Assembly: GCF_004010195.1 (NCBI RefSeq)
Contig: NC_057719.1
Coordinates: 55,434,785 to 55,498,784, forward strand
DNA length: 64,000 nt
Reading direction: 5' to 3'
Source of the DNA: Chiloscyllium plagiosum
Lineage: Eukaryota
In this document: one piece after another, positions 5,900 to 59,500 of the stretch
How the letters are laid out: each line of letters starts with the position of its first letter
How positions within the stretch are numbered: position 1 is the stretch's first letter
The notes under the pieces: generated by a model
Seen by the model: the letters and a program-made list of their open reading frames with translations, nothing else
What the model was told of the DNA's origin: nothing
Databases searched by the model: none
Position numbers and translations under genes: made by a program

Positions 5900-6015
5900 T
5901 TAGACTCGAAACATCAGCTCTTTTCTCTCCTTACAGATGCTGCCAGACCTGCTGAGATTTTCCAGCATTTTCTCTTTTGGTTTCAGATTACAGTATCCGC
6001 AGTAATTTGTTTTTA
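5900..6015 (+). mobile_element. Penelope-like pLTR fragment (family A relative)
   Basis: TAGACTCGAAACATCAGC...GATGCTGCCAGACCTGCTGAGATTTTCCAGC; starts inside the hammerhead stem II/GAAAC. Confidence 0.6.
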
Positions 6016-6487
6016 TTATTATTATTTTTGATGATTTGTACATTGATGGGATGGAAACATTTTCTGTTGAAGTAATCATCTATGTTATGACATAGTTCTC
6101 TCAATGCAATATGTATATTGTATAATCACATCCTGCAGCTGGGGGAAAGCAAGCTATCCTGGCCAAGCCTGGGCTACAACACTGACTTGCTCATGGGGAA
6201 AAGAGATGTAACAGTTTGATCAAGCACAAAATTACAACAATAACAACCTGAATATATTTGTGGATTGAGGATTGCAAGATCCCACATAAGGCCCCAATGA
6301 AAGCTGCCAGTTGTATTAAGGATTAAAGCCACTATTATTTTGAAACCTCCTGGGGTAGGTTGGCCAGCCACAACTTCAGGCCCCATGTCTCACTCCAGCA
6401 ATTAGCCTAGTTCTGTGAAGATGTCCTCACTCTGTGATGATATTGCATTGTACTCATCTGGAGATAACAGCACAGAGGATGATAGAG

Positions 6488-6689
6488 TCAAGAGTGCAGT
6501 GCTGGAAAAGCACAGAATCCAAGGAGCAGGAGAATCGATGTTTCAGGTATAAGCTCTTCATTCCTGATGCAGGGCTTATACCTGAAACGTCGATTCTCCT
6601 GCTCCTCGGATGCTGCCTGACCTGCTGTGGTTTTCCAGCACTACACTCTCGCCTCTGAGCTCCAGCATCTGCCGTCCTCACTTTCTCCT
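6488..6689 (+). mobile_element. Penelope-like family A fold-back insertion
   Basis: Inverted arm 6488-6560 then direct arm; TSD AGAGGATGATAGAG at 6474-6487 and 6690-6703; hammerhead core mutated (CTGATGC). Confidence 0.85.
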
Positions 6690-6703
6690 AGAGGATGATA
6701 GAG

Positions 6704-7005
6704 CCTGAGCTCAAGTATGTAAATTAGCTTGCTGAGCAGGAAGGTTTGCTTTCAGATGTTTTGTCACTCGGTCACATCATCAGTGAGAGTCTCCAGTGAA
6801 GCATTGGTGGTATGTCCCATCTCTCTATTTACAGGTCTTGGTTTCTTAAAGTGGGTAATGTCATTTCCAGTTCTTTTCTTCAAGGCAAGGTATATAGGAT
6901 CTAAATCGATGCGTTTATTGATGGTGTTCTGGTTGAATGCCATGCCTCTAAGAAATCTCATGCATGTGTTTGTTTCGCCTGTCCTAGGATGTGTGTTGTC
7001 CCAGT
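6704..7005 (-). mobile_element. Penelope-like family C 3' end
   Basis: ORF 6764-7084(-) contains AFNQNTINKRIDLDPIY; homologous to 46770-47226; decayed hammerhead near 6750-6790. Confidence 0.8.
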
Positions 7006-7867: not shown

Positions 7868-8350
7868 GAAAGATGTTGTGAAACTTGAAAGGGTTCAGAA
7901 AAGATTTGCAAGGACGTTGCCAAGGTTGGAGGATTTGAGATATAGGGAGAGGCTGAACAGGCTGGGGCTGCTTTCCCTGGAGGCTGACAGGTGACCTTAT
8001 AGAGGTTTACAAAATTATGAGGGGCATGGATAGGATAAATAGACAAAGTCTTTTCCCTGGGGTCATGGAGTCCAGAACTAGGGTCAGAGGGGAGAGATAT
8101 AAAAGAGACCTAAGGGGCAACATTTTCACGCAGAGGGTGGTACGTATATGGAATGAGCTGCCAGAGGAAGTGGTGGAGGTTGGTACAATTGAAACATTTA
8201 AGAGGCATTTGGATGGGTATATGAATATGAATTTGGAGGGATATGGGCCAGGTGCTGGCAGGTGGGACTAGATTGGGTTGGGATATCTGGTCGACATGGA
8301 CGGGTTGGACCGAAGGGTCTGTTTCCATGCTGTACATCTCTATGACTCTA
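7868..8350 (+). mobile_element. CR1 LINE family 1 (HER1-like), 5'-truncated
   Basis: RT C-terminus (IMRGMDRINRQSLFP...FTQRVVRIWNELP) and (CTCTATGA)n tail. Confidence 0.9.
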
Positions 8351-9225: not shown

Positions 9226-10440
9226 TATAGACTGGTGAGACTGACGTCGGTGGTGGGCAAGTTGTTCGAGGGAATCCTGAGGGACAGTATTTACACATAT
9301 TTGGAAAGGCAGGGACTGATTAGGGATAGTCAACATGGCTTTGCGTGTGGGAAATCATGTATCATGAACTTGATTGAGTTTTTTGAAAAAGATGAGGGGA
9401 GAGCGGTGAACGTGATCTATATGGACTTCAGTAAGGCGTACAACAAGGTTCTCCTTGGGAGACTGGTTAGCAAGGTTAGATCTCATAGAATACAGGGAGA
9501 ACTAGCCATTTGGCTACAGAACTGGCTCAAAGGTCGAAGACAGAGGGTAGTGGTGGAGGGTTGTTTTCAGACTGGAAGGCCATGACCAGTGGAGTGCCAC
9601 AAGGATTGGTGCTGGGTCCACTTCTTTTCATCATTTATATAAATGATTTGGATGTGAACATAGAAGATATTGTTAGTAAGTTTGCAGATAACACCAAAAT
9701 TGGAGATGTAGTGGACAGCGAAGAAGGATACCTCAGATTACAACTGGATCTTGATCATATGAGCAAATGGGATGAGGAATGGCAGATGGAGTTTAGTTTA
9801 GATAAAAGCGAGGTGCTGCATTTTGGGAAAGCAAATCTTGGCAGGGCTTAAACACTTAATGGTAAGGTCCTAGGGAGTGTTGCTGAACAAAGAGACCTTG
9901 GAGTGCAGGTTCATAGCTCCTTGAAAGTACAGTTGCAGGTAATGAAGAAGGTGTTTGGTATGCTTTCCTTTACTGGACAGAGTATTGAGTACAGGAGTTG
10001 GGAGGTCATGTTGCGGCTGTACAGGACATTGGTTAGGCCACTTTTTGAATATTACATGCAATTCTGGTCTCCTTCTTATCAAAAGGCTGTTGTGAAACTT
10101 GAATGGGTTCAGAAAAGATTTATAAGGATGTTGCCAGGGTTGGAGGATTTGAGCTACAGGAAAAGGCTGAATAGGCTGGGACTGTTTTCCCTGGAGTGTC
10201 GGAGGCTGAGGGGTGACTTTATAGAGATTTATAAAATCATGAGGGGCATGGATAGGGTAAATAGACAAGGTCTTTTCCCTGATGCAGCACAATGCTCCAA
10301 AAGCTCTTGTTTCCAAATAAACCTGTTGACTATAACCTTGTGTTGTGGCACTAGATTAGGTTGGCATATCTGGTCGGCCTAGTCAAGTTAGATCAAAGAG
10401 TCTGTTTCTGTGTTGTACGTCTCTCTGACTCTATGACTCT
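9226..10440 (+). mobile_element. CR1 LINE family 1, RT region, with a Penelope segment replacing part of the 3' end
   Basis: SQHGF, YMDFSKAY, SGVPQG.VLGPLLFIIYINDL, SKFADNTK; (CTCTATGA)n tail; foreign segment at about 10279-10347. Confidence 0.9.
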
Positions 10441-11066: not shown

Positions 11067-11376
11067 ACAGACAGAGAACACTGGGGGCTAACACCTTCAA
11101 CATACTGTCTAGCTAATACCAATTGTTACAGATAACCTGAGAATGCAACTTTAAAAGAAAGGTCTTGTGATTTACACATGAAAGAAGTGAAACTATCATG
11201 GTATTCGAACAGATGAAAGACTCAGCAGACAATCAAGGTATTTTTCAATGTATAATTTCAGTTACATCACACTGTAAACTTTTACTATAAATTCTGTGCC
11301 TTACAAATGTGGCCTCCACAACCATCTGATGAAGGAGCCGCGCTCCGAAAGCTAGTGCTTCCAATTAAACCTGTTG
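11067..11376 (+). mobile_element. Penelope-like family B 3'UTR/pLTR
   Basis: Ends in CTGATGAAGGAGCCGCGCTCCGAAAGCTAGTGCTTCCAATTAAACCTGTTG; homologous to 54791-54885 and 59200-59500. Assignment to PLEs is inferred from the hammerhead and fold-back behaviour. Confidence 0.7.
11323..11357 (+). ncRNA. Minimal type I hammerhead ribozyme (family B)
   Basis: CAU-CUGAUGA-A-GGAGC(CGC)GCUCC-GAAA-GCUA^GUG; stem I CAU/GUG, palindromic AGCU stem III region. Confidence 0.75.
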
Positions 11377-11500
11377 TGGATTTTAGTGTGGAGAACATCC
11401 AAGAGTGGGTCATGCACCAAGTATGCTTTGAAGATGGTGTTTGCATCCTCAGTACCTCATACAAGCCCAGTTTACAAGTCTTAATAAGGCTTGCAATGAA

Positions 11501-12010
11501 CACCTCTGGGACATTTGGACCAACCAACCCAAGCACCGCGTGGCTCAACACTTCAACTCCCCCTCCCACTCCACCAAGGACGTGCAGGTTCTTGGACTCC
11601 TCCATCGCCAGACCATGGCAACACAATGGTTGGAGGAAGAGCGCCTCATCTTCCGCCTGGGAACCCTCCAACCACAAGGGATGAACTCAGATTTCTCCAG
11701 TTTCCTCATTTCCCCTCTCCCCACCTTGTCTCAGTCAAATCCCTCGAACTCAGCACCGCCTTCCTAACCTGCGATCTTCTTCCTGACCTCTCCGCCCCCA
11801 CCCCACTCCGGCCTATCACCCTCACCTTGACCTCCCTCCACCTATTGCATTTCCAACGCCCCTCCCCCAAGTCCCTCCTCCCTACCTTTTATCTTAGCCT
11901 GCTGGACCCACTTTCCTCATTCCTGAAGAAGGGCTTATGCCCGAAACGTCGATTCTCCTGTTCCTTGGATGCTGCCTGACCTGCTGCGCTTTTCCAGCAA
12001 CACATTTTCA
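11501..12010 (+). mobile_element. Penelope-like family A, GIY-YIG C-terminus plus pLTR
   Basis: EHLWDI..NQPKHRVAQHFNSPSHS.KDVQVLGLL...LEEERLIFRLGTLQPQGMN; TSD GCTTGCAATGAA at 11489-11500 and 12011-12022. Confidence 0.9.
11919..11954 (+). ncRNA. Minimal type I hammerhead ribozyme (family A)
   Basis: UC-CUGAAGA-A-GGGC(UUAU)GCCC-GAAAC-GUC^GA; intact core, palindromic ACGU, very short stem I. Confidence 0.75.
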
Positions 12011-12317
12011 GCTTGCAATGAAGTCAGGTGAATTTCTGCTGAAGAAAACAATTGTGTTAAAAAATTACCATGAGGTGATGGAAATGTATGAATGTATTGT
12101 GATTTTAAGTCCCTACTAACTAGCTTTTACTGAATGAAGTGAATTAAAAGACAATTGTGTTTCTATGTCCAAAAAATCAAACTTTGCTCAGAGAGTCACT
12201 TATGAAAGTCAAGCAGTTGAACAGGATATGTTTTCATGCGCAGAGAAAATTTTTAATTTCATATTTTCCTTTAAAGAGAAAGGAAGAAATGTGTAAGGAA
12301 CAGCTTAATTCTTTTGA

Positions 12318-22330: not shown

Positions 22331-23014
22331 GCTTAGAGAGTGTGAAAGCACAGTCTGCTGAATGCCTCACAGTAACTTCTCCAATAAAGAAATGTCCCTA
22401 ACCTCTGACACTCAGAGGACTGCCAGAGAATAGGCACCTGCTCAGCCACAGTCAGAAGGGACCCCAGTGATGTCACCAATAGGGGACTTCATTCACATGC
22501 ACAGGGAGGAACTGGAACAACAGACAGGGATGTGGGAGGCAATGGCCTCATTGCTCAGAGGCTGCAGCAATGCAGTGGATCATATGACAGTCTGATTGTC
22601 CTATTGGCAGGTTGGCAGCTGCCATTGGAGAGTCAGGCCCAGCATACACCTGCTCCCCATTATCCCAGCTCTTGGTCCTCACTATATGTGCCACCTCCTC
22701 CAAACAGCCAGGGCAGTGCCATTAGGCACTTTACAGAGGCCTCAGAAATCTCCACGTCATCCAGCTCCACCCTGCAACCAACCCCTCAAAAGAGCCAACC
22801 CCAAATCTCCAGGACCAATGGGCTGCACTGCCAAGAAGGTACACTCCCCCGCAACTGCAAAAGGGAGGACTACACAAAGGAGAGAAAGGGTTAAGGAAAT
22901 ATATTGAGAGCACTTCGGTGGGATTGGTGGAAATGAATTGCATATTTTGTGTTACATTTCTATAACAAGCACTACTTTGAACTTTTATCTGGCTGTGTCT
23001 ATCTCTATGTAGCC

Positions 23015-23103
23015 TGTTCCTTGGATGCTGCCTGACCTGCTGCGCTTTTCCAGCAACACATTTTCAGCTCTGATCTCCAACATCTGCAGTCCTCACTTTC
23101 TCC
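23015..23103 (+). mobile_element. Penelope-like family A short insertion
   Basis: TSD TCTA(T/C)CTCTATGTAGCC at 22998-23014 and 23104-23120; begins a few nt downstream of the hammerhead cleavage site. Confidence 0.85.
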
Positions 23104-24755
23104 TCTACCTCTATGTAGCCCTGAATGCAAGTCTACCAACATGATGCATAAATTCAAGGCCATATATGATGTGCTATGAATTAATGCCTGTGTTGAGGGC
23201 CAACAACAAACAAGAGCATCAAGGTATATACAGAGCAATGGGTCCTGTTGATTCCATTACCCCTTGTCCTACAACATTCCTGTTCTTTCCCTGGTCTGTA
23301 TATCTAAAGTGTTCATGTGAATTGGGTGGTCAGCAATGTCTGGGACAGAGAAGTGCACAGCAAATAAGGAGTCAACTCACTAGTGGGACTGCCAATGGTT
23401 AGGAATCCTGCATGTCTCGCTTCCCTTTAAAGGGCCTTACATGGTGGGTTTTGCAGCTCCATTCCTCACAGATTAGCTCACTTAGCATGCCCAAGCCATC
23501 TGTGGTAGCAGCCATTTTTATCCCCATTGTGCATGATGGATGGCAGCAGTGAACACTCCTTAGCCAGTGGCTTCCAGCCTCTTCCTTTACATGTCAGTGA
23601 CAGCCCTTCTGGTGACATATACGGTTGATGTTAAAATCAGATTATCCATAATCTTTTTGAATGTGCAACAGGCTCAAAAGATCAAGCTGCTAACTCTTGT
23701 TCCTTAGTTGTACATTTGTATGAACGCTGTAGTCTTCACACCTCCCCAAGTTCCCACCTAACCCATGCCCATGGTCTTTCATCCAGCTGCTGGCATATGC
23801 ATAGACAATGCCAAATGTGATCTTGCACTGTAACCCACTTGAAGCCAGAGTACTCGTGACCATGGAAAGCTCCCTGACCACCCACGAGACCTCCTCCATC
23901 CATTTTACTATATCCCCTCCTCCCTTGTAGATAACATTGCTTCCCCTCATGATATCATACTGCCTTCCCTCCACCCATCCACCACCCTCCGCCAAGACTA
24001 CAGCCCCCCAATCCCAAACAATAGCTTACTGAGTCATTTTCCAATGGCAGTGGCCCCCTTATTATCCCAACCCAGCCCCCTTTCCCCATGGTTTCTGTGG
24101 ATGGGCCCAACAGACTGAACCCTTGAGTGACCTAACTGAACAACTCTGGGCTGATGGCCAAAATCTCCCCAACAGTGTTAGCCCTACCCTCCTAGACTGG
24201 CCACTATAGAGCCACAGGACTGACTGTGATCCACTTCCTATATTGCAGAAGCATGGATTCCCTGACAGAGATTACCCAGGCCTGTTGGCTCACCATGACC
24301 AAACCCCAAAGAAATGGTATGGGAGGCTGCATATGATTTACTGAGCCATGGCCCCTGACTGCCTGCTGCATCTATAGTCTTTGCTGAAGATTACTCCTCT
24401 ATGACTTTCAGACCTGACTGCTTACTTATTGCACATGAGTGTGTTTGCTGTGTAAGTTGCTGCCACATGGTGAGAGATTAATGTAACACACGACCATTCA
24501 GCAAGATGTACATCCCCCTAAAATGGAACTTGTATGTGTGACTATGTTAATTGGCAAGGAAAGGCAAGATATGGATGCAGTGAGCATTCAGCGAGGCGGT
24601 GCTGAGTGAGTGAGCACTAAGAGAGCAAACAAGAAGCCCTGCGATGCAGCAAAAGCATAAAAAATGAAGTCAGCTGATCCTACTATTGACAAAGGCCTCC
24701 CATTGAATTCTACCACAAATCGCATCATGGCTCATGACCATTCATAGTTCAAAAA

Positions 24756-24993
24756 TTGTGAGAAGATTTGTAGCTCAGGTGCTCATTGTTGTGGTTCTGT
24801 TTGCCGAGCTGGGAATTTGTGTTGCAGACGTTTCGTCCCCTGTCTAGGTGACATCCTCAGTGCTTGGGAGCCTCCTGTGAAGCGCTTCTGTGATGTTTCC
24901 TCCGGCATTTATAGTGGTTTGTCTCTGCCACTTCCGGTTGTCAGTTCCAGCTCTCCGTTGCAGTGGTCAGTATATTGGGTCCAGGTCGATGTG
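24756..24993 (-). mobile_element. Penelope-like family C (young subfamily) 3' end
   Basis: Reverse complement encodes HIDLDPIY then a pLTR with an intact hammerhead. Confidence 0.85.
24824..24863 (-). ncRNA. Minimal type I hammerhead ribozyme (family C), intact core
   Basis: Minus strand GCA-CUGAGGA-U-GUCACC(UAGACA)GGGGAC-GAAAC-GUC^UGC; stem I GCA/UGC. Confidence 0.8.
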
Positions 24994-26855: not shown

Positions 26856-27138
26856 AAGGGAGGTGGCTGCATAGAAACTATGACAGGACCAAGGATATTC
26901 TGCATTGACTGGAGTTCAGCAAATAAATGAAGAACCATCAGTTGAGTTGAATGCCTAGTAGCCTAAAAGTAGCACTGGGTAACACAGTGAAATCTTGGCT
27001 GGATCCTGAGATCAATATTCAGGTCACTCACCTGCATAAGGTCAGATGCCACTTGTATTATACACATGGAAGTTCTGTGACATACAAAGGATCTGTAATC
27101 TGAGATATAAATGTGTGGAGTGCTCATCTAATAAGTAG

Positions 27139-27252
27139 GAGAAAGTGAGGTCTGCAGATGCTGGAGATCAGAGCTGGAAATGTGTTGCTGGAAAAGCGCA
27201 GCAGGTCAGGCAGCATCCAGCTTATGCCCGAAATGTCGATTCTCCTGTTCAA
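27139..27252 (-). mobile_element. Penelope-like family A insertion with short inverted segment
   Basis: TSD CTAATAAGTAG at 27128-27138 and 27253-27263; inverted piece CTTATGCCCGAAATGTCGATTCTCCTG at 27221-27250. Confidence 0.85.
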
Positions 27253-30200
27253 CTAATAAGTAGCCTAATCACTGGTCCCCAAAGGCAGCATGGGAGGCCG
27301 CTCTAAAATTTAGTCAGAAGAAATGTTAAACTTGTATTATTGTGGGGTCAGGCAGCATAGGAATACAAGGCAGAAACCCTGCAGCTCACTGCTGGTTGTC
27401 CTAGTACTCATCTCTCCATCCACCTGACTCCCACTTCAGCTGGTTCACATAAAATCAGCCAATTCCCTACAGACCCAACTGACCTAACTAATTTGGTGCA
27501 TGCAGGTGGATAGATAAATGGAGGAAAGACTTTTATTTGTAAAGAGACTAAAAGGAGAGATTCAAAACTGAACTGCACAGGCATCATGCACAAAGCTTCT
27601 TCCTGACTTCAGAGGAGTTGCAACCATTCGGACTCTACTACTGTTGGCTTTGCAAGAAAGGTTGCTAAGCTTTACCTTTTTATTTAAATACAGTTAACAT
27701 TATCTATATGCAGGTCAAGATTTCACCTCTGCTGCAGGACTGCTGGAAAGAACCATCTCTTATTCATCATATGACTTTAAATCACTTCCCTCATGATAAT
27801 GTAAACTATTTTGTTTGTATATCCACATGAACCCTTTACACGAACAGCCAACATTAGTGGGGGTTTTTCTCAGAAATAGAACTGCTCCAATTTAACCTAC
27901 ACACATCAGGGTGAGTTACAATTCTCCTGAACATGTTCAAGTGCTTGGTTACATTGATAGAAAAATGGAACCATATATTAGAAGAGTGGCTGATGTGCCA
28001 TTACAGCCAAAATGTAGCTACTTGAAAGTAACCATGTGGGTTGGTGGGTGAAGGAAAAGTAAGACGAAAATTTAATACTACCCATAAGTTTTGGAAAGCT
28101 CTGCTTTCACCGTAGCTTACTCCCTGGGTGCTCAGTTTCAGTCAGCATGAAAAGGAATTGTTAGTGACCTGAAGTTGTGGCCATCCATCTGAAGGAGAGC
28201 AGTACTGGCATGCATTATATTGGTATACCTCCACATTTACTAACCTCTTATCTTCACCAGTCTCTACATTCATTCTTAAATTGTAATGGTAGCCACTTGC
28301 TGTCACAAAGTTGTAGCACCTCCTACACAAGGAAGCTATGTGGATGCCAACGTTTCTGTGCTTTACTTCTTCTGTATAGTCCCCTTCTAACATACTACAA
28401 GAGATGAAGCCTACTCTTTGTCCAGCTTCTGCCTGTGTGTCTAACAGGGCAGCAGGTGGTCACGGTGAGGGCAGGGACCATGCAGGAGAGATTGATGCTT
28501 TCTTCAGGCTGTCTTTAAGGGGATGGGTGTCTTTGTCAGAGGGAGAGTTCATGGAAAGAGAGACAGACAGACACTCCAGAGGGAAAACCAGTTAAACAAA
28601 AGCATTAATACTTGGAAACAAACATGCTGGAGAGGTACACAAGATGAGTCAGACCAGAGTGTCTCATTTGCAAGTTATTTTTCCTTTCTGGAAGGAAAAC
28701 AAATGATTCTTCAACTAAGATCTGAGTCTCAGCTTAAATAGTCCGATTCTGTGCTCTAGCCTGCCTTTCTCAATGTTTCTAAAGACCTGATGCCATAGAA
28801 TAAAGAATCCCTGTTTTATAATTTTCAGAGCATCTGTGTACCTAAACCTCCCATTGCATATGGGTAGCCATGAGGTGGTGGTGCCTTTAAACAAAGCTGG
28901 AGATCATTGACAACCAGCTCTTATAGGCAAGCCAGATGAGGGCCAGAGGCTTATTATAAATAGATTGCCCTTAGGGGTGCCTGTGAGAGCTGACCTGCGT
29001 AATTTTAGTATGTATTACCCCAAAATTCCTCACTGGGCAGTCAGCTCCTCCTGCACTTCAAAGCGTCATACAGATTTACCTTGACCAGGAGTCTTTGTGC
29101 TGTAATTATCATCCTGCGGAGATGCCAATAAACTGTTTACCTTAGTTTACATAAATACATAGAGTAAATTATGTTACAAAGTTTCATTATAACTTTCTGC
29201 AGAAGAAAACTAACAATATTCAAGAAATCCTGGATGGAAATTGCTTAAGTAATTTTGAAGCGTCTGCATGCAGATATTCGACATGACTTTGAAGAGTAAA
29301 GCACAATTCACTTGAATCAACCCAGTCAGGCAAGGTTTAAACTTTGTTTTAAGCAATGTGAAAAACCACAGTCAGCTTTTCTTGTACCTTCGAGTGTTGG
29401 ATCTTTGCTCCCTTTATCTTAAAAGCTTTTTTTTGGGTCAATCGTCTTAAATTATTGATGCTGTTTCAACAGTATGGACATTTTGATTCTTTGTACTTGG
29501 GACATGCTGCAGAATTTTGTCAGGTTTTTTATGAGCATATCTAAAATCAATATAGACAATTTCAAGTTTCTATTGTGGATTCAGTTTCATCATTTTACTG
29601 TCTGAATGCAGTAAAAAATTGTCAGATCAACTCTTGAATTCAAGAGTTACATAGTAGTTATCTGTTATTGCAGTTGGGTTCTGATTTGCTCTCATTATAT
29701 TCACGAGAGATTTCAGTATCATTTATAGACGTTAACTCTGCGGATCTTTTCTGAAACAGTGGACATCAGCCAAAAGAACTTTTCTTTCACCGAGTCTTTT
29801 ACACATTTCTAGGAACAATTAGAAATGACTATATGCACTTACATGTCAGTAACTTTGTCATAAAGCATGACCAATGAGCTAAAGTAACAGCCCAACCTTC
29901 AATATATGCAGTGATTAATCCTATCAATAAACATTCACATCTGTTTTTGGTTGGTCCAGTGTTAGTGTTGCTGAATTAAAACACAGACTTCTTTTGCTCT
30001 CTCGATAGAATAGCAGAACTCTTGAATATGCATGTTACATACATGCATAAAGCCTCCTAACAAACACATTCCCAATCTTGGTGAAGAGTCAACACCTAAC
30101 CTCTCAATACATAAAAACTAAAAAGGAAATGATGTATTCCAATTGTCACTGGCTGAAGAGTGAATTAACTTAGAAGAGCAAAATTCCAGGACCACATTCC

Positions 30201-30500
30201 AATATTATTGCAACGATTGCCATCAAACAGCGAAAATAATAAGCTACCCCAAAATTTGAAAGATCAGTTTCAACCACTTACGGTTATCATCTCATCTAGT
30301 AAGGATTCGACTGTTGTAAAAATTCTGCTCAAAGAGGTGTCATTTCAATATGTTAATGCTTCATCAATGTGTAGGCTTCATTCTCAGAGCTATAGTAGAA
30401 TGATTCATGACAGTTTGTGCTTTGAAGAAAAGAGTAGAACTAGGGTGTAATCAGGGATAAACTTCAAGCAACCACTTCCATTGGGTAGACGCTGAACAGA

Positions 30501-30663
30501 GCTGAAAATGTGTTGCTGGACACACTTTCCTAATTCCTGAAGAAGGGCTTATGCCCGAAACGTCGATTCTCCTGCTCCTTGGATGCTGCCTGACCTGCTG
30601 CTCTTGTCCAGCAACACATTTTCAGCTCTGATCTCCAGCATCTGCAGCCCTCACTTTCTCTGC
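30501..30663 (+). mobile_element. Penelope-like family A fold-back insertion
   Basis: TSD GTAGACGCTGAACAGA at 30485-30500 and 30664-30679; short inverted arm switching at GCTGGA microhomology. Confidence 0.9.
30533..30568 (+). ncRNA. Minimal hammerhead ribozyme (family A), intact core
   Basis: CUGAAGA-A-GGGC(UUAU)GCCC-GAAAC-GUC^GA; core identical to 11919-11954. Confidence 0.75.
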
Positions 30664-31366
30664 GTAGACGCTGAACAGACTTACACAACCACATTGGGGT
30701 GTTGCCTATTTCTGGCCTCATATAAAACGCACAAATGTGTATTCCTATAACATTCCATTCTCTTGATTTTGTTCACTAGCTTACAATATTCATACATTTA
30801 AAAATTCAACTTCTTTAATTCTATCCATTTGCACCTTCAAAAATTCAGCTAATTGATTATTCTGATTATATCTCTAGTAGAAATAACAATTAAATAAAGA
30901 ACGGTTTATTAAATAAATGGTAGTTCAGCAGTAACTCTGTAAGATTCTTCTTCCATGTATGTAATAGCATTGCCAAGCCTTGTATTTTCTCTTTGAATTT
31001 CTCAGGGTGTTTTTATTTGACATTTTACTCACTATATTCAGATCACATTTACTGACCTGGTTGTTTCCTCTCCATGGACTAGATGTGTTCTGTGTACAGC
31101 AGATTTCACTTGAATATCTACATGACAAGTCAAGGCAATTTATCATCTCGAGAGGACACAGCTATGGTTCACTAAAAAAATGCTCAGCATTAGAAAATTT
31201 GTCAGTGCAATAAAAGCTCATGTTTCAGTGGCATCAGTAAATAATTAACTCATCCATATTCTGGTCCAGAAGTAAAATTCATTTCTTATGTTTAGTTGTT
31301 AAATGTAATCTTAATACATGGAAATGTGATGCTGCGTGCTTGACTTGGCTCCTAGTTAAGAACACG

Positions 31367-37935: not shown

Positions 37936-39063
37936 GAAAATATTTTACATGCAGACAACCACAGCTCAAGATGCTCCAAGCTGATATCTCAATTTTCATT
38001 TCATCGTATTGGGTTAAATCGCAAGGATTATGATTATAGGAAAGATGGTAGTGCTAAGGGCAATACAAAGAGAAATCCTAAACAAAAATCTACACAGAGG
38101 ACACCTAGACATTCCAAACTGCAGAGCAAAGAGATAACATTTAGTCTGGCGGCCAGGCATTTTGAAAAACATAGAGGATCACATCCTGCTATGTCAAATC
38201 TGCCTCACATACAGCCATGACCCTACAGATTTCGACATGAATTCTGGAAGGCCATGGAACTCTCACTGGATTTCAGTCCAGGTAAACTATTATTCAATAG
38301 TTGCACCACTCTGTTGCACCAGAGTGGTTTGAAGTGAAAGGTTTCATTCAATGACAGTTCATTCTGTGAACATAATATTAAAAGGTAGGCTATATCTTTG
38401 AATAATGGATCCACATAAGCAGAACTCTTAATTGGAAGGAGATTGAAAATGCCTGCACCAGTCTTAGAATACAACTTCAATCCAAACATGAGCTCACAAA
38501 CCACAAGAATGTAAAACAACTGGAGAAAAGCCACAACAAAAAGCAGCAGCAGTGGTACAACTATAGATGCAGGGCAAACATTTTGAGTATTAAAGCCAAG
38601 AAAGAAGTCTGGTAAAGGGACAGAAAGCTAGACGTCATCATGTCCATCAGATCAACTGAGGAGAGTCAGGAAAGCACTGACCTCACTCAAGACAAGAAGT
38701 AAGAATGAGCATCACAGAATATAATACAACCAAATGGACGCAACATCAGATGGTATACAGAGTGGTGCAATTATTCCAGACACTGCAACACCATCACCCC
38801 ATTGTTGTACTCAAGCAAACAAAATCAGGATGTCCAATGAGAGTTCTAAATTGTCTCAACCTGTGAAAATCAGACATTGAGGGGCAGCAGAGAGGTGATA
38901 ACAGCAAAAGCAGACATAATGACAAAATAACAGAAATGGTAAGAGTTATTATTACAATGAGTGCGTAAGTAAGTAAAAGGAAACTATAGGAAAATCATAG
39001 ATCAAGTACAGAGAAGTTCAGTAGCAAAGTTTTTCATTAGCAGCATGGCTGGAAGATCAGAGT

Positions 39064-39214
39064 TGAGAGTGTGTTGCTGGAAAGGCACAGCAGGTCAGTC
39101 TGCATCCAAGGAGCTGGAGAATCTCCTGCTCCTCGGATGCTGCCTGTCCTGCTGTGCTTTTCCAGCAACACATTCTCAACTCTGATCTCCAGCATCTGCA
39201 GGCCTCACTTTCTC
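39064..39214 (+). mobile_element. Penelope-like family A fold-back insertion with apex at the hammerhead cleavage site
   Basis: TSD CTGGAAGATCAGAGT at 39049-39063 and 39215-39229; inverted arm ends GGAGAATC at 39123. Confidence 0.9.
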
Positions 39215-39274
39215 CTGGAAGATCAGAGTGCAGATGCATAACTTCTGCTTCTGGAAGTCACTGTCATGCACAGT

Positions 39275-39428
39275 GAGTCATCGAGATGTACAGCATGGAA
39301 ACAGACCCTTCGGTCCAACTCGTCCCTGCTGACCAGATATCCCAATCTATTCTAGTACCATTTGTCAGCACTTGGCCCATATCCCTCTAAACTCTTCTTA
39401 TTCATATACCCATCCAGGTGCCTTTTAA
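39275..39428 (-). mobile_element. CR1 family 1 3'UTR fragment
   Basis: GAGATGTACAGCATGGAAACAGACCCTTCGGTCC. Confidence 0.85.
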
Positions 39429-40007
39429 AGTCATTGGAGCTTGTCACAGTGGCAAGAAAAATTAGACGAAACATTGCTGGGAGTGTGAGTTAGCGCTGTG
39501 GCGAGATGTGGTATAACGATATTTAAATAAATCATGATGATGTATCTGATCATATGACATCAGTAAAAAAGAATATACCAGTCAAGGAAAAGCATGTGAA
39601 GAGGAAGCTCTTAGACATTACGTTAGAGAACTGAATTTGATACTATAGTCATATGTAGAGATGCAAAATGCAGGAGAGTTATAATCCAAAAGAATTTTGT
39701 GTGGAGATAAAGACAAAGCAGTCCCAGGAACAATGTAAGCAGCCGTCCACAGCCTGAGAGCACAACCAATAGCTCAATGTGCAAGTAGCAGCACTGTCTT
39801 AAAGCACAAAATAAAATATAGATAAGTACATTTAAATCACTACGTAATAACCAGTCAATGCTTTTTGACTATGACATAGGTTCCAAAATACAACAATGAA
39901 CTGTTGTTTCCTAATGTGCAATGCAGGTCTGAGGTTGCTTGACCTGCATGAAAATCCATCCAGTCTTCAGCAATTGTACAACTTGCATATTCTTAGAAGG
40001 ATGGACC

Positions 40008-46469: not shown

Positions 46470-47226
46470 CAAGTTTTGAGAATATTTGTAGCTCAGGTTG
46501 AGGTTCTGGATGTAAGTTTGCTCACTGAGCTGGAAGGTTCGTTTTCAGACATTTAGTCACTATACTAGGTAACATCTTCAGTGAGCCTCCGGTGAAACAC
46601 TGGTGGTATGGCCCGTTTTTTATTTATGCGTTTAGGTTTCCTTGAGTTGGTGATGTAATTTACTGTGGTGATGTAATTTCCTGTTCTTTTTCTCAGGGAG
46701 TGGCAAATTGAATCCAAATCCAAGCCAATGTATATACAAGCAAAGCAAAATATCATTTATTTGTCATATATCATTTATCAAATACAAAATACCTTGCAAA
46801 AACTGTAACAAACACTACATTGGACAAACAGGCAGAAAACTAGCCACCAGAATACATGAACATCAACTTGCCACAAGTGAGAGAGACATGACCCTCTCTC
46901 ACTAGTATCTTTACATACGGATGCAGAAGGACACCACTTTGACTGGGACAACACATCCATCCTAGGACAAGCCAAACAGAGACACACGTGAGAATTCCTA
47001 GAAGTATGGCATTCCAACCGGAACTCTATCAACAAACACATTGACTTGAATCCCATCTCCTGAGAAAAAGAACAGGAAATGACATCACCAACCCAAGGAA
47101 ACCTAAACACCTAAATAAGCCATACCACCAGTGCTTCATCAGAGACTCACTGATGATGTTACCTAGGATGGTGACGAAACATCTGAAAAAGAACCTTCCA
47201 GCTCAGTGAGAAAACTTACATTCAGA
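46470..47226 (+). mobile_element. Penelope-like family C with GIY-YIG and inverted pLTR
   Basis: YKIPCKNCNKHYIGQTGRKLATRIHEHQLA (GIY-YIG); inverted 3' end copy at about 46470-46730, direct copy 46780-47226. Confidence 0.9.
47147..47186 (+). ncRNA. Minimal hammerhead ribozyme (family C)
   Basis: UCA-CUGAUGA-U-GUUACC(UAGGAU)GGUGAC-GAAAC-AUC^UGA; stem I UCA/UGA; GUC to AUC likely by CpG decay. Confidence 0.7.
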
Positions 47227-48259
47227 TTCTATATTTAAGAATACTATATTTAAGTAAAAGGTACTGTTCGCTGATTTATTTCACTACTGGAACCTAGGGA
47301 TTGAGAGGTATTTAACTTGTTATTTAGACTTCAGGCTTTTCTGAGTAGTCTCTAAATAACCTAGAAAGGAAACTCTTAATGACTAGGATAATTATATTTG
47401 GGCAAGGAACAGAAAATATTCAACTTCCATGTTTTGAAAAAAACAACAGTCTGAACAGACTAAACTTCTGAAATATCACTACTGATATTGGTTCTTCCAA
47501 AACATGCCATTGTCCTTAGATTACATGTCTTTTTACAACTTCTGAGTAATAGAAAATTTGCAAGCCTTCTCAAGTTTTCTCAATGTTCTGAATCAGAGTC
47601 TCACAGACATTGCAATAATTTTTAATTCATGCCAGGTTGGTTAAAATATCTACCAATTTATGGAATTCACAACTCATGGATATCAAACTGCCTTCAGCTG
47701 CAATAAAAACACAAATGCTTCAGGCATACTTACTTGCTGCATGTTTGTAACTGCTATTTTGCAATAACAAGCATTCACAAACATATCCTATTTATTGCTG
47801 TTTTTGTACAGTTTATGATTGCATTATTTCATTCTCTATGTACTTGTGTTAATTTACTCTAACTTTGTATTTTATTCTTAATAAGGTCCATCTTGGACTT
47901 CCAGCAGGACCTCATTATATAACCACTGTTTATGGCTGCAACAATTTAAAATATATAATAACCTATTTATTTCTTATAATTAATGCACAACAATAGCAGT
48001 CACATTTATTATTTTATCGACATAATTATAAGTAATGGAGCTTCATTTTAGAAGGCTAATTATGATTTTCTAACATATAATGATATGCATTATTTGCAGT
48101 GTGTATGCTGATACATCTGAATTGAAATATTGCTAATACATATGCATAAACATCGATAGTGCTTTGATCATCCAGATCATGCTATATTCAGTAACTGGCA
48201 ATTGTAATGGAACAGCTTATTTTATTCTAAAATACAGAAATTCTGGGGAAAAAAGTGTA

Positions 48260-54718: not shown

Positions 54719-54736
54719 GCTATTGATTCTAGATGG

Positions 54737-54885
54737 TTAAAAATCACACAACACCAGGTTATAGTCCGACAGGTTTAACTGGAAGCACAATTGTGCTTCC
54801 AATTAAACCTGTTGGACTATAATCTGGTGTTGTATGATTTTTAACTTTGTACACACCAGTCCAACACCAGCATCTCCAAATCATG
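54737..54885 (+). mobile_element. Penelope-like family B fold-back insertion (about 55-bp arms)
   Basis: Arms 54736-54790 and 54791-54845 with 4 mismatches; TSD GATTCTAGATGG at 54725-54736 and 54886-54897. Confidence 0.9.
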
Positions 54886-55789
54886 GATTCTAGATGGAGC
54901 AGTGAAGGCACCAAGTCCAGTACAGCAGCAGACCAGAGGAAGAAGATTGAATTAACACTGACACAAAGTCAGGAACACACAGCTTGAAGTAGTAAAGTCC
55001 AACATTTTTAAAGCAGAATCCTGGCTAATAGAAACTTCATGATGCATTCAGCAGCATCCACTGACACCTTTACTGAATTACGAATGTGTAAACATATTTT
55101 ACAGATCAAGAGATCGATGATATCAAGAAAGAGCTCCAAACGTTTTGCTTGCATTAGAAAGCAAGAGCTTCACATTACATGTGTATTGAGTCTTTACATA
55201 CATGATTAGAAATATCCAGAAAAGGCACGGAAAGTTATTAAGTCCAGCTCCAGGAAAGAATTACCTTCGGAATTAACAGACCCAATTCACGTGATATAAG
55301 CAGCAACCCCGAAAGTTAATTGAACAGTTTGTCAGAGAATACTGAGCAAAACAAATAAATGTGACTCTTCCAAACGGCAGCTGTCAGACAGGCTCATTGA
55401 CTCAACATCAATTAAAACCCTTGAGAAGGATCTTTGGGTGAGGAAAAGGGCCTTGCCATTTACACATTATGTGAGGATGGGCATACGTGTAAAACAATGG
55501 TGATAGGCCAAAAGCAAGTCTGCATTATCATTATGACCAGCAAATTGTGCCAAACCATCATCATCCATCAGTGCAGGTGCAGTTTGTTACACCTACCAAA
55601 AAATGCTGTCACACTTTTCCTTATATACGTAAAGCTTGTTACACCAAATGACATTGGGCAAACGTGTCTGAGAAATCTGGTTCCAATCAAAAGCTTATAA
55701 ATGAACAGAGTGTGGTCTTCAATACAGAAAGCCAAGTAATAGAGCTCAATTTTTTTCTATGTGCGTAGGCACTTGTGGATTTTTTACTT

Positions 55790-57820: not shown

Positions 57821-58231
57821 TTAAAGCAAATGGAAAAGTTTAAAGCACTGTTTACACCCCAATATTTGTAACAATTTTCTGAGATGTTAGAGACTCAGCG
57901 TGGAATCTTACAGGGCTCTCAGTGACATGGGTAAAGAAGAGAATTGTGGCAGAAAAGGACAAGAGGTCCAGTGAGGAATACCTTGTTGTTGTGAGTAATT
58001 TGCTCCATCTTTTATGCTTTCACCAAGCATTGGGATGGGTTTCTCTCTCAGCAGCAACAAATTGCCAACCAAACAGGTTTATTGATTGTTAGGAAGCCTC
58101 CATGTTCAGAAGGATGGAACTGTATCTCAGAGTGGGATTCATGGGCAGCAGCCACACTTCCCCCTCATCTACAGGCATTGAATCTGACAATTGTAACCCC
58201 ACAAAACCATCATACAATGCTCCGATACATT

Positions 58232-58467
58232 TTCAAAAAGTGTGGCACTGGAAAAACACAGCAGGTCAGGCAGCATCCGAGGAGCAGGAGGATCGATGCT
58301 TTGGGCATAAGCGATTCATCAGGAAAGTGATGAACATTTCTGATGAAGGGCTTATGGCCGAAATGTCAGTTCCCCTGCTCCTCGGATGCTGCCTGACCTG
58401 CTGTGCTTTTCCAGTGCCACACTTTTCAATGCTGATCATCAGCACCTGCAATCTTCACTTTCTCCCA
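58232..58467 (+). mobile_element. Penelope-like family A fold-back with two back-to-back decayed hammerheads
   Basis: Inverted arm to about 58325, direct arm from about 58336; degenerate TSD CTC(CG/TC)ATACATT. Confidence 0.8.
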
Positions 58468-58634
58468 CTCTCATACATTGGCACAGTGCTCTGGAAGCAC
58501 AGGCTTGCATTGCAGGTCACATTGCCAACCAGAGTTGAAAGGCTGAAGCAGGGACACTTTGCATGCAGGGACAGGCGCCCAATTCACGGAGTGGATCAGG
58601 CTGCATCTTAGCACTGCTTGCTCACTCGCTCATT

Positions 58635-59199: not shown

Positions 59200-59500
59200 C
59201 TCGGGACTGTGACTTGAAAGAAATTCTGGGATTTACATATTAATTATTGAAACCTGCATCCCCATTCTAAGTGAAGAAAGACTTAACAGCCATCTATGTT
59301 TGTCTAACACATCACTTCAGTTGTATGATACTTTGATCTTTTGCTTTAAATTCTGTGTCCTATGATCCTGCTCCACTACATAGCTGACAAAAGAGCAGCA
59401 CTCCAAAAGCTTGTATTTTTAAATAAACCTGTGAGTCTAAAACCTGGGGTTGTGTGATTTTTAACTTTGTCCAGGCAAGTCCAACACTGGCACCTCCACA
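59200..59500 (+). mobile_element. Penelope-like family B, older copy with decayed hammerhead
   Basis: CTGACAAAAGAGCAGCACTCCAAAAGCTTGT...TTGTGTGATTTTTAACTTTGT. Confidence 0.7.

What the first reader, a model, noticed from the sequence alone, without database searches (positions are those of the whole stretch)
39049..39229. Second, independent fold-back ending at the cleavage site (family A)
Seen: the inverted arm ends ...GGAGAATC at 39123. This is the reverse complement of GATTCTCC, the first bases after GUC^ in the family A hammerhead (11948-11958). The direct arm resumes at TCTCCTG through a TC microhomology, and the TSD is 15 bp. The simple copy at 23015 also starts a few nt downstream of that site. 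Inference: the same mechanism as at 54725, in an unrelated pLTR family. Counter-examples that retain the ribozyme (6488, 30501, 58232) could derive from uncleaved RNA.
Basis: partly seen in the sequence, partly recalled or inferred. Interest (0 to 1): 0.7.

Follow-up and report, generated by a model that had tools for sequence, protein, structure and literature searches.

The report
Fold-back Penelope stub near ribozyme cut
This is a real but ordinary hairpin-shaped stub of a Penelope-like jumping gene in a shark-type genome whose two arms stop within a few bases of the predicted cut site of the element's hammerhead-ribozyme motif; most copies of the family keep the ribozyme and start about 32 bases earlier, so cutting likely sets the end of only a minority of copies.

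Summary
The copy has an identical 15-bp duplication (39049-63, 39215-29), an inverted arm ending +1..+3 from the predicted GUC^ site, a TC overlap, and a direct arm from +4..+6 through a roughly 30-38-nt tail. This is the published 'inverted copy plus tail' insertion unit of Penelope-like elements, likely built by both nicked target strands priming cDNA; a self-primed hairpin would need a 1-nt loop.

The claim that cleavage sets the apex is only partly supported. In the window, 3 of 11 short arm ends lie at +1..+8 (P=0.06; 1 of 9 without this copy), and 6 of 11 cross the site. In four runs laid on the family, none of the 24 listed loose-end rows lies at +1..+8; ends pile up at -32/-31, and RNA-read depth shows no step at +1.

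There is a secondary hint: 5 of 12 listed strand-switch joints, and 8 of 12 listed joints with filler, have an end at -1..+7, where my clipping simulation predicts no pile-up. These are top-ranked rows only, so this is not a test. The scan noted this architecture repeatedly elsewhere in this genome.

The parts
39049..39063 (+). Left target-site duplication (15 bp); its last 10 nt are also antisense to element +61..+70 (likely top-strand priming homology)
   Evidence: identical copy at 39215
39064..39123 (-). Inverted, tail-less arm of family A pLTR end, element +60 down to +1 (+1..+3 given the overlap)
39122..39123 (.). TC microhomology at the head-to-head junction
39122..39216 (+). Direct arm, element +4 to +96/+98 (last CT shared with right TSD), including the tail that the inverted arm lacks (about 39179/39189-39216)
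39215..39229 (+). Right target-site duplication
11923..11950 (+). Reference family A minimal type I hammerhead motif (core CUGAAGA, helix II GGGC/GCCC, GAAA, palindromic helix III remnant, GUC); predicted cut after 11950
   Evidence: no Rfam match at gathering score; cleavage not tested
11501..11720 (+). C-terminal end of a PLE-type ORF upstream of the pLTR in the longest family A copy (11500-12013, 12-bp TSD, 3' end at about +63, tail-less)
   Evidence: 62% identical over 68 aa to P0003, which has sub-threshold RVT_1 and GIY-YIG hits; TSD
22998..23120 (+). Simple family A copy starting at +7..+9, 17-bp TSD with one mismatch
6474..6703 (+). Family A fold-back copy, arm ends about -25 and -34, 14-bp TSD
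27125..27265 (-). Family A copy with non-overlapping arms (inverted -18..+13, direct +16..tail), the twin-priming pattern; boundaries approximate
30485..30679 (+). Family A copy, inverted arm +43..+69, direct arm from -51, 7-nt junction microhomology, 16-bp TSD; its direct arm was the reference for laying reads
58217..58475 (+). Family A fold-back copy, arm ends about -31 and -33; TSD decayed, boundaries approximate
54725..54895 (+).

Best explanation
A 151-bp dead stub of a Penelope-like retroelement, made of an inverted tail-less arm and a direct tailed arm between 15-bp target duplications, likely built when both nicked target strands primed reverse transcription and the two cDNAs were likely joined head to head through a 2-nt overlap; its arms stop at +1 to +6 of the predicted hammerhead cut, likely a minor stopping class, while most family copies stop about 32 nt further upstream and keep the ribozyme. 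Shown: architecture, TSD, overlaps and end positions. Inferred: the bottom strand primed at the tail end (+96/98); the top strand primed at the tail-less site, helped by 10 nt of target/RNA complementarity; the two cDNA 3' ends annealed TC:GA. For the ends near +1, run-off on a cleaved RNA is my preferred cause, at about even odds against pausing at helix I or chance.
For: Architecture matches Craig 2021 Fig. 2 legend (inverted 5'-truncated copy, 30-40-bp tail at one end) and Arkhipova 2013 (inverted pLTR shorter than the direct one, TSD). [quoted passage not shown] This gives two start sites, as measured in vitro for the Anolis element, which also cleaves and extends both strands. The TSD end overlaps the antisense element by 10 nt here and by 4-5 nt in 6484 and 30501. 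Copy 27218 has an inverted arm holding sequence absent from its direct arm, which a self-copying hairpin cannot give. At 39123 a self-primed hairpin would need a 1-nt loop (read from the sequence). Dominant 5' end upstream: X1 loose ends before 30533 = 1134 and before 30534 = 506, agreement about 0.3, i.e. mixed flanks; similar in X6, X14 and X21; 3 of 11 window arms end at -34..-31 (post hoc P=0.01). Minor +1 class: 34 of 84 contig counts in the 12 listed strand-switch joints have an end at +1..+7. A uniform-end simulation puts about 7% at +1..+8 and makes 30565 and 30567 weak attractors (about 1% and 0.5-0.8%). Of 8 GA sites offering the same 2-nt overlap, only +1 appears among the listed joints.
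Against: No priming event was observed; the mechanism rests on anatomy and on another species' enzyme. In vitro, the Anolis RT started at a site not homologous to the cut DNA, so the 10-nt target homology is not predicted by that work and could mean that the left 'TSD' is partly element-derived; no empty site was seen. The -32 pile-up is partly an artefact: the reference has a private base at 30532 and subfamilies diverge upstream (the simulation gives 4-9% at 30533-35 even for uniform ends). The +1 excess comes from 12 of 74 joint rows and 12 of 130 filler rows chosen as best supported; the runs share loci, and X1 and X6 were under-counted by the tool. The -32/+1 joints have about 32-34 nt of asymmetry, close to the 31-letter word length of the contigs, so an assembly bias is not excluded. 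Frangieh 2024 found cleavage dispensable in vitro and no RNA-seq ends at the cut. Helix I pairs at only 3 of 4 positions in this subfamily.
Confidence: 0.68

Rival explanations
1. One reading: hammerhead cleavage makes the RNA 5' end, and family A fold-backs generally pivot there, with ribozyme-retaining copies as exceptions.
For: This copy ends at +1..+6, 23015 at +7..+9, and 54725 possibly at +1/+1. Ends at -1..+3 recur in the listed joints.
Against: 6 of 11 arms cross the site, and 1 of 9 falls at +1..+8 once this copy is held out (P=0.55). 0 of 24 listed loose-end rows lie at +1..+8. X21 depth at -16..-10 is already 78% of that at +20..+26, and the increments shrink across the site (673, 517, 298, 229, 175, 112), so ends between -9 and +12 account for about 11% of plateau depth at most.
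Confidence: 0.07
2. The ends at +1..+6 owe nothing to cleavage: they reflect RT pausing at the 3' strand of helix I of an uncut, possibly protein-bound ribozyme, local microhomology, or chance.
For: The in-window excess is not significant. RT coming from the tail meets helix I first, at +4..+1 (inference pairing). ATTC occurs at both 30533 and 30566, and TCGA is a palindrome centred on the cut, so the site is rich in short homologies. Cleavage was dispensable in vitro for the Anolis element, and min-HHRs cleave weakly.
Against: Helix I is only 3-4 bp, whereas the stronger helix II (ending at -8) shows no listed joint pile-up. Other GA sites with equal overlap are absent from the listed joints. 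The palindromic -2/-2 joint is not among the listed rows (though symmetric apices may be lost in contigs).
Confidence: 0.4
3. The copy inserted as a longer palindrome with both ribozymes (like 6484 or 58232) and later lost its centre by microhomology-mediated deletion.
For: Long inverted repeats tend to lose their centres (general knowledge, recalled). A 2-nt overlap sits at the junction. The arms have diverged at 7 of 57 sites, so the copy is old.
Against: Copies 6484 and 58232, of similar or greater divergence, kept near-symmetric centres. Deletion gives no reason to stop at +1..+4.
Confidence: 0.12
4. Self-primed fold-back, either of the first cDNA or on an antisense template as proposed by Arkhipova 2013.
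For: Palindromes at inverted junctions in rotifer elements. The perfect palindromic apex at 54725.
Against: At 39123 it needs a 2-bp stem with a 1-nt loop. It cannot give 27218 (non-overlapping arms). It does not explain the TSD/antisense overlap at the outer end.
Confidence: 0.1

Closest known systems
Insertion unit of endonuclease-positive Penelope-like elements (Craig et al. 2021, PMC8557442; Arkhipova et al. 2013, PMC3846280)
   Same: 5'-truncated pLTR with an adjacent inverted, shorter copy, a 30-40-bp tail at one end only, a short TSD, a hammerhead in the pLTR, and a GIY-YIG-type ORF upstream in the long copy.
   Different: Stub-sized (151 bp, no ORF); TSDs here are 12-17 bp against 8-10 bp in the rotifer passages; arm ends are mapped against the ribozyme cut, which the passages I read did not do.
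PAc / Poseidon element of Anolis carolinensis (Frangieh et al. 2024, PMC11167929)
   Same: Two internal RT start sites bounding the tail, downstream of the hammerhead; both target strands cleaved and extended; template mostly uncut.
   Different: There RT started without homology to the cut DNA and no RNA ends were found at the cut; here the top-strand target end matches the RNA over 10 nt and a minor class of ends lies at the cut. Clade membership (Poseidon or Neptune) was not tested.
L1 twin priming and dual priming (as described in Meyer et al. 2010, PMC2837659)
   Same: Top-strand overhang anneals inside the RNA and primes an inverted cDNA; TSDs bound both arms; microhomology is expected at the inner junction.
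   Different: Twin priming gives non-overlapping arms with a deletion (seen in 27218). At 39049 the arms overlap over +4..+60, which needs two RNAs (dual priming) or one RNA copied twice. No poly(A).
Minimal type I hammerheads of metazoan PLEs (Cervera and de la Pena 2014, PMC4209133)
   Same: Core, extra nucleotide before helix II, G10.1-C11.1 pair, palindromic helix III remnant, short helix I.
   Different: Helix I is 3 of 4 paired and helix II is 4 bp; activity untested; the 39049 copy itself holds no ribozyme, only the sequence 3' of the cut.

Membership tests
EN+ Penelope-like element insertion unit | pLTR lies 3' of an RT + GIY-YIG ORF | tested here: met
   P0001 (11501-11720) is 62% identical over 68 aa to P0003, which carries RVT_1 (E 0.008) and GIY-YIG (E 0.0003) hits, both below Pfam cut-offs; P0001 alone has no Pfam hit. 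Support is moderate.
EN+ Penelope-like element insertion unit | Adjacent inverted 5'-truncated copy | tested here: met
   39064-39123, and 4 further family A copies
EN+ Penelope-like element insertion unit | 30-40-bp tail at one end only | tested here: met
   Inverted arm reaches +60..+70, direct arm +96..+98: 26-38 nt difference
EN+ Penelope-like element insertion unit | Target-site duplication | tested here: met
   15 of 15 identical; empty site not seen
EN+ Penelope-like element insertion unit | Full-length tandem parent element and RT clade | not tested
   No whole genome held; only the ORF end lies in the window
Minimal type I hammerhead of PLEs | Core CUGAnGA...GAAA...NUH, unpaired base before helix II, G10.1-C11.1, palindromic 15.2-16.2 | tested here: met
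   11923-11950 and 30537-30564 read against the features listed
Minimal type I hammerhead of PLEs | Helix I of 4-5 bp | tested here: inconclusive
   3 of 4 pairs in all five family A copies checked; the +3 A variant (about 11% of X21 reads) would give 4 of 4
Minimal type I hammerhead of PLEs | Self-cleavage at GUC^ | not testable with these tools
   No assay; no Rfam model matched
L1-type twin priming product | Non-overlapping inverted arms with internal deletion | tested here: not met
   39049 arms overlap over +4..+60; met only by copy 27218
Non-LTR retrozyme | Head-to-tail tandem monomers each with a hammerhead | tested here: not met
   Head-to-head, single and TSD-bounded, with no ribozyme in this copy
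   Window 3 of 11, P=0.06, held-out 1 of 9; loose ends 0 of 24 listed rows; joints 5 of 12 listed rows against about 7% simulated, top rows only

The most novel reading that the evidence does not exclude
Shark Penelope-like elements record two discrete RNA 5' ends in their stubs: a major one at the upstream edge of the hammerhead (about -32 to -34, perhaps a transcription start or splice junction) and a minor one at the cut site. This would be genomic evidence that the minimal hammerhead cleaves in vivo and that the cleaved RNA serves as template, with both ends joined head to head by dual priming.
Probability: 0.35. Interest if true: 0.65.

Novelty: new member of a known kind. Interest (0 to 1): 0.32.

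Why it matters
The structure itself is known. The open question it touches is whether the weak hammerheads of animal Penelope-like elements act during transposition: Craig 2021 calls their function unclear, and Frangieh 2024 saw no need for cleavage and no RNA ends at the cut. A family this abundant (about 85,000-98,000 contigs laid per DNA run) makes this directly testable from an assembly: a sharp peak of arm ends at +1 would be fossil evidence of in vivo cleavage. As it stands, one copy and a hint in top-ranked joints do not show it, and the main end lies elsewhere.

Tried and rejected
- Whole-genome breakpoint histogram: no genome is held for this window.
- Pattern scans for family copies found 0 matches in metagenome, viral (18) and prokaryote (19) contigs, as expected for a vertebrate repeat.
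- Rfam at gathering score: 0 matches.
- Single-strand RNA folds of the hammerheads are no better than shuffles (z -0.3 to +0.4); only helix II forms, so folding says nothing on activity.
- No RNA holder was listed for the locus. 'No place where many molecules begin' in X21 (table 6) comes from a single-cell poly(A) library that is probably fragmented, so I did not use it as evidence on cleavage.
- My first hand-read arm ends were corrected for five arms; the +1..+8 counts did not change.
- Pile-ups at 30542, 30600-30607 and 30626 were rejected as clipping at private or subfamily differences of the reference.
- Two RNAs for the two arms: the arms carry opposite alleles at +16 and +55, but both fit C>T decay, so this is undecided.
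- A conserved splice acceptor at about -37 was considered but is present in only 1 of 3 upstream sequences read.
- Earlier-findings look-ups by place near (34), words (37) and sequence (44) gave nothing relevant.

Full report

1. Observation. A 15-mer occurs exactly twice in the window, at 39049 and 39215. Between the two copies lie 151 bp: an inverted arm (39064-39123, element +60 to +1) and a direct arm (39122-39216, +4 to +96/98), sharing TC at the junction. The arms match at 50 of 57 positions, and the DNA hairpin is far beyond 200 shuffles (z -12.1). Because of the overlap, the ends are +1..+3 and +4..+6, not a single defined base. Copy 23015 starts at +7 to +9. The last 10 nt of the left duplication are a perfect antisense match to +61..+70. 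And copy 27218 is a further counter-example, with an inverted arm spanning -18..+13.

2. What it is. The longest family A copy (11500-12013) carries the end of an ORF whose 2 database hits are uncharacterised Chiloscyllium punctatum proteins. One of them, P0003, is 62% identical over 68 aa and has weak RT and GIY-YIG hits below Pfam's cut-offs. Downstream lies a motif with the features of the minimal PLE hammerheads listed by Cervera and de la Pena: core, unpaired base before helix II, G-C at 10.1/11.1, and a palindromic helix III remnant. Helix I pairs at 3 of 4 positions, and Rfam gives no match. So family A is the pLTR end of a Penelope-like element in a shark-type genome. The window holds nine family A loci, five with an inverted arm. 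[quoted passage not shown] All four runs laid show loose ends behind +96. This is the 'inverted copy plus 30-40-bp tail' unit.

3. Mechanism. For the Anolis element, purified protein cleaves and extends both target strands and starts RT at two internal sites that bound the tail. I infer the same here: the bottom strand primed at the tail end, the top strand at the tail-less site, and the two cDNA 3' ends annealed TC:GA. Support comes from the TSD/antisense overlap (10 nt here; 4-5 nt in 6484 and 30501), from junction microhomologies (2 nt here, about 4 in 6484, 7 in 30501), and from copy 27218, whose arms do not overlap. A self-primed hairpin at 39123 would need a 2-bp stem with a 1-nt loop. 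Against: the Anolis RT needed no homology to the cut DNA, and I saw no empty site. The model is that of twin/dual priming described for L1. As the arms overlap, two RNAs or two passes are needed.

4. Does cleavage set the apex? In the window: of 11 arm ends in the six short TSD-bounded copies (the three long copies at 14/172, 11500 and 53131, all of which extend far upstream, were left out), 3 fall at +1..+8 (binomial P=0.059 over a 95-nt range). Without the copy that raised the idea it is 1 of 9 (P=0.55). Six of 11 cross the site, and 3 of 11 end at -34..-31.

Genome-wide proxy: I laid two DNA runs of organism A, one of organism B and raw RNA reads of organism A on 30514-30700 at 80% likeness (97,604, 85,535, 93,017 and 3,642 records). 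Of 24 loose-end rows shown (819 hidden), none is at +1..+8. The main 5' rows are -32 and -31 (X1: 1134 and 506, agreement about 0.3, i.e. mixed flanks); the smallest X1 row shown is 381. In X21 the depth per 7-nt bin rises by 318, 673, 517, 298, 229, 175, 112 and 1 from -37 to +13, with no step at +1. The two increments that span the site add up to about 11% of the plateau, an upper bound weighted by expression.

A simulation with uniform ends and the mismatch rates (40,000 draws for each of 4 scoring schemes; my approximation of the aligner) shows that -32, -23, +39/+43 and +62 attract clipped ends. It ranks +43 about as high as -32, yet +43 is absent from the listed 5' loose ends, so part of the -32 pile-up looks real and part is artefact.

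A weaker form survives. Among the 12 strand-switch joints shown (15 rows shown, 59 hidden), 5 join -36..-30 to +1, +3 or +7, with 34 of 84 contig counts (18 of 33, 8 of 29, 8 of 22). The other 7 end at or near the simulated attractors. Among 12 joints with filler shown (118 hidden), 8 have an end at -1 or +3. The simulation gives +1 about 1% and +3 0.5-0.8%, less than +17, -13 or -23, which are not listed as partners of -32. Of 8 GA sites offering the same overlap, only +1 is listed. This is a lead, not a test. The rows are selected as best supported, runs share loci, two runs were under-counted, ATTC recurs at -32 and +2, and the 32-34-nt asymmetry is close to the contigs' 31-letter word length. 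Pausing at helix I would also give ends at +1..+4.

The sister case 54725 has both arms at +1 with AATT between them if its template matched 11326 (22 of 22 identical downstream), or both at -2 if it had the GCTT seen at 59316.

5. Comparison and novelty. The element works like, and on the features tested belongs with, known EN+ PLE insertion units; it is not a retrozyme array nor a classical twin-priming product. Hammerhead function in these elements is called unclear; cleavage was dispensable in vitro and no RNA-seq ends were found at the cut. My searches listed no paper that, by title or abstract start, maps genomic 5' ends against the cut; the library lacks most subscription papers. Earlier notes of this scan describe the same architecture in other windows of this genome, two of them saying that arms stop just before the ribozyme. 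These are unchecked AI notes; I had recorded the -32 reading before seeing them.

Papers as seen: PMC11167929, parts 1-2 of 4 (abstract, main text, start of methods); PMC4209133, parts 1-2 of 4 (results, discussion); PMC8557442, PMC3846280, PMC2377424, PMC2837659 and bioRxiv 2026.07.22.740005, passages only. No supplements were read; Fig. S2 of PMC11167929 may bear on end positions. Instability of long palindromes is recalled, not from a call.

6. Verdict. This is an ordinary PLE stub, with an unproven hint that a minority of cDNAs end at the ribozyme cut. Interest 0.32.

Noticed in passing
family A, -34..-31 (30531-30534; arms of 6484 and 58232): The main 5' end of family A stubs lies just upstream of the hammerhead core, at the 5' strand of helix I. 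In D. virilis the intron end maps to the 5' end of helix I; one upstream variant here (copy 172) has a pyrimidine run and CAG at about -37, two others do not. A transcription start or splice junction may define the short template.
   Followed up: partly
39040-39063 and 39230-39238: The flanks resemble the antisense element beyond the 10-nt match: the 24 nt before the inverted arm align with three 1-nt gaps, and 8 nt after the right TSD match antisense tail sequence. Either the target was chosen for homology or it was an older remnant.
   Followed up: no
54780-54800: Family B apex is a perfect palindrome; the 4 central bases may be untemplated additions on two run-off cDNAs or may be templated by a GCTT variant.
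   Followed up: partly
family A +3 (30567): Three alleles in reads (T, A about 11%, C about 11% in X21); only A gives a perfect 4-bp helix I, a natural handle to compare ribozyme-competent and weak subfamilies.
   Followed up: no
family A tail, about +62..+100: The tail reads like the 3' end of an intron (branch-point-like CTGAT/CTAAT, pyrimidine run, then TAG in the loose-end consensus behind 30660); motif identity is recalled, not tested.
   Followed up: no
5900-6000, 6690-6900, 24690-24950, 46470-46750, 47000-47230, 10290-10350, 11240-11380, 59316-59500: At least three other hammerhead-bearing pLTR families (B, C, D) are in the window; the copies listed here keep part or all of the ribozyme. 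One D-type copy lies just 3' of the 6484 copy, and a B copy lies about 120 bp upstream of copy 11500.
   Followed up: partly
39275-39429: A different multi-copy repeat (further hits at 8197, 17359, 36388, 42360, 53530, 62099) begins 45 bp after the right TSD; from recall it resembles a shark CR1-type LINE end; unrelated to the finding.
   Followed up: no
150-175: Copy 172 has an internal deletion that removes most of the hammerhead core and helix II.
   Followed up: no
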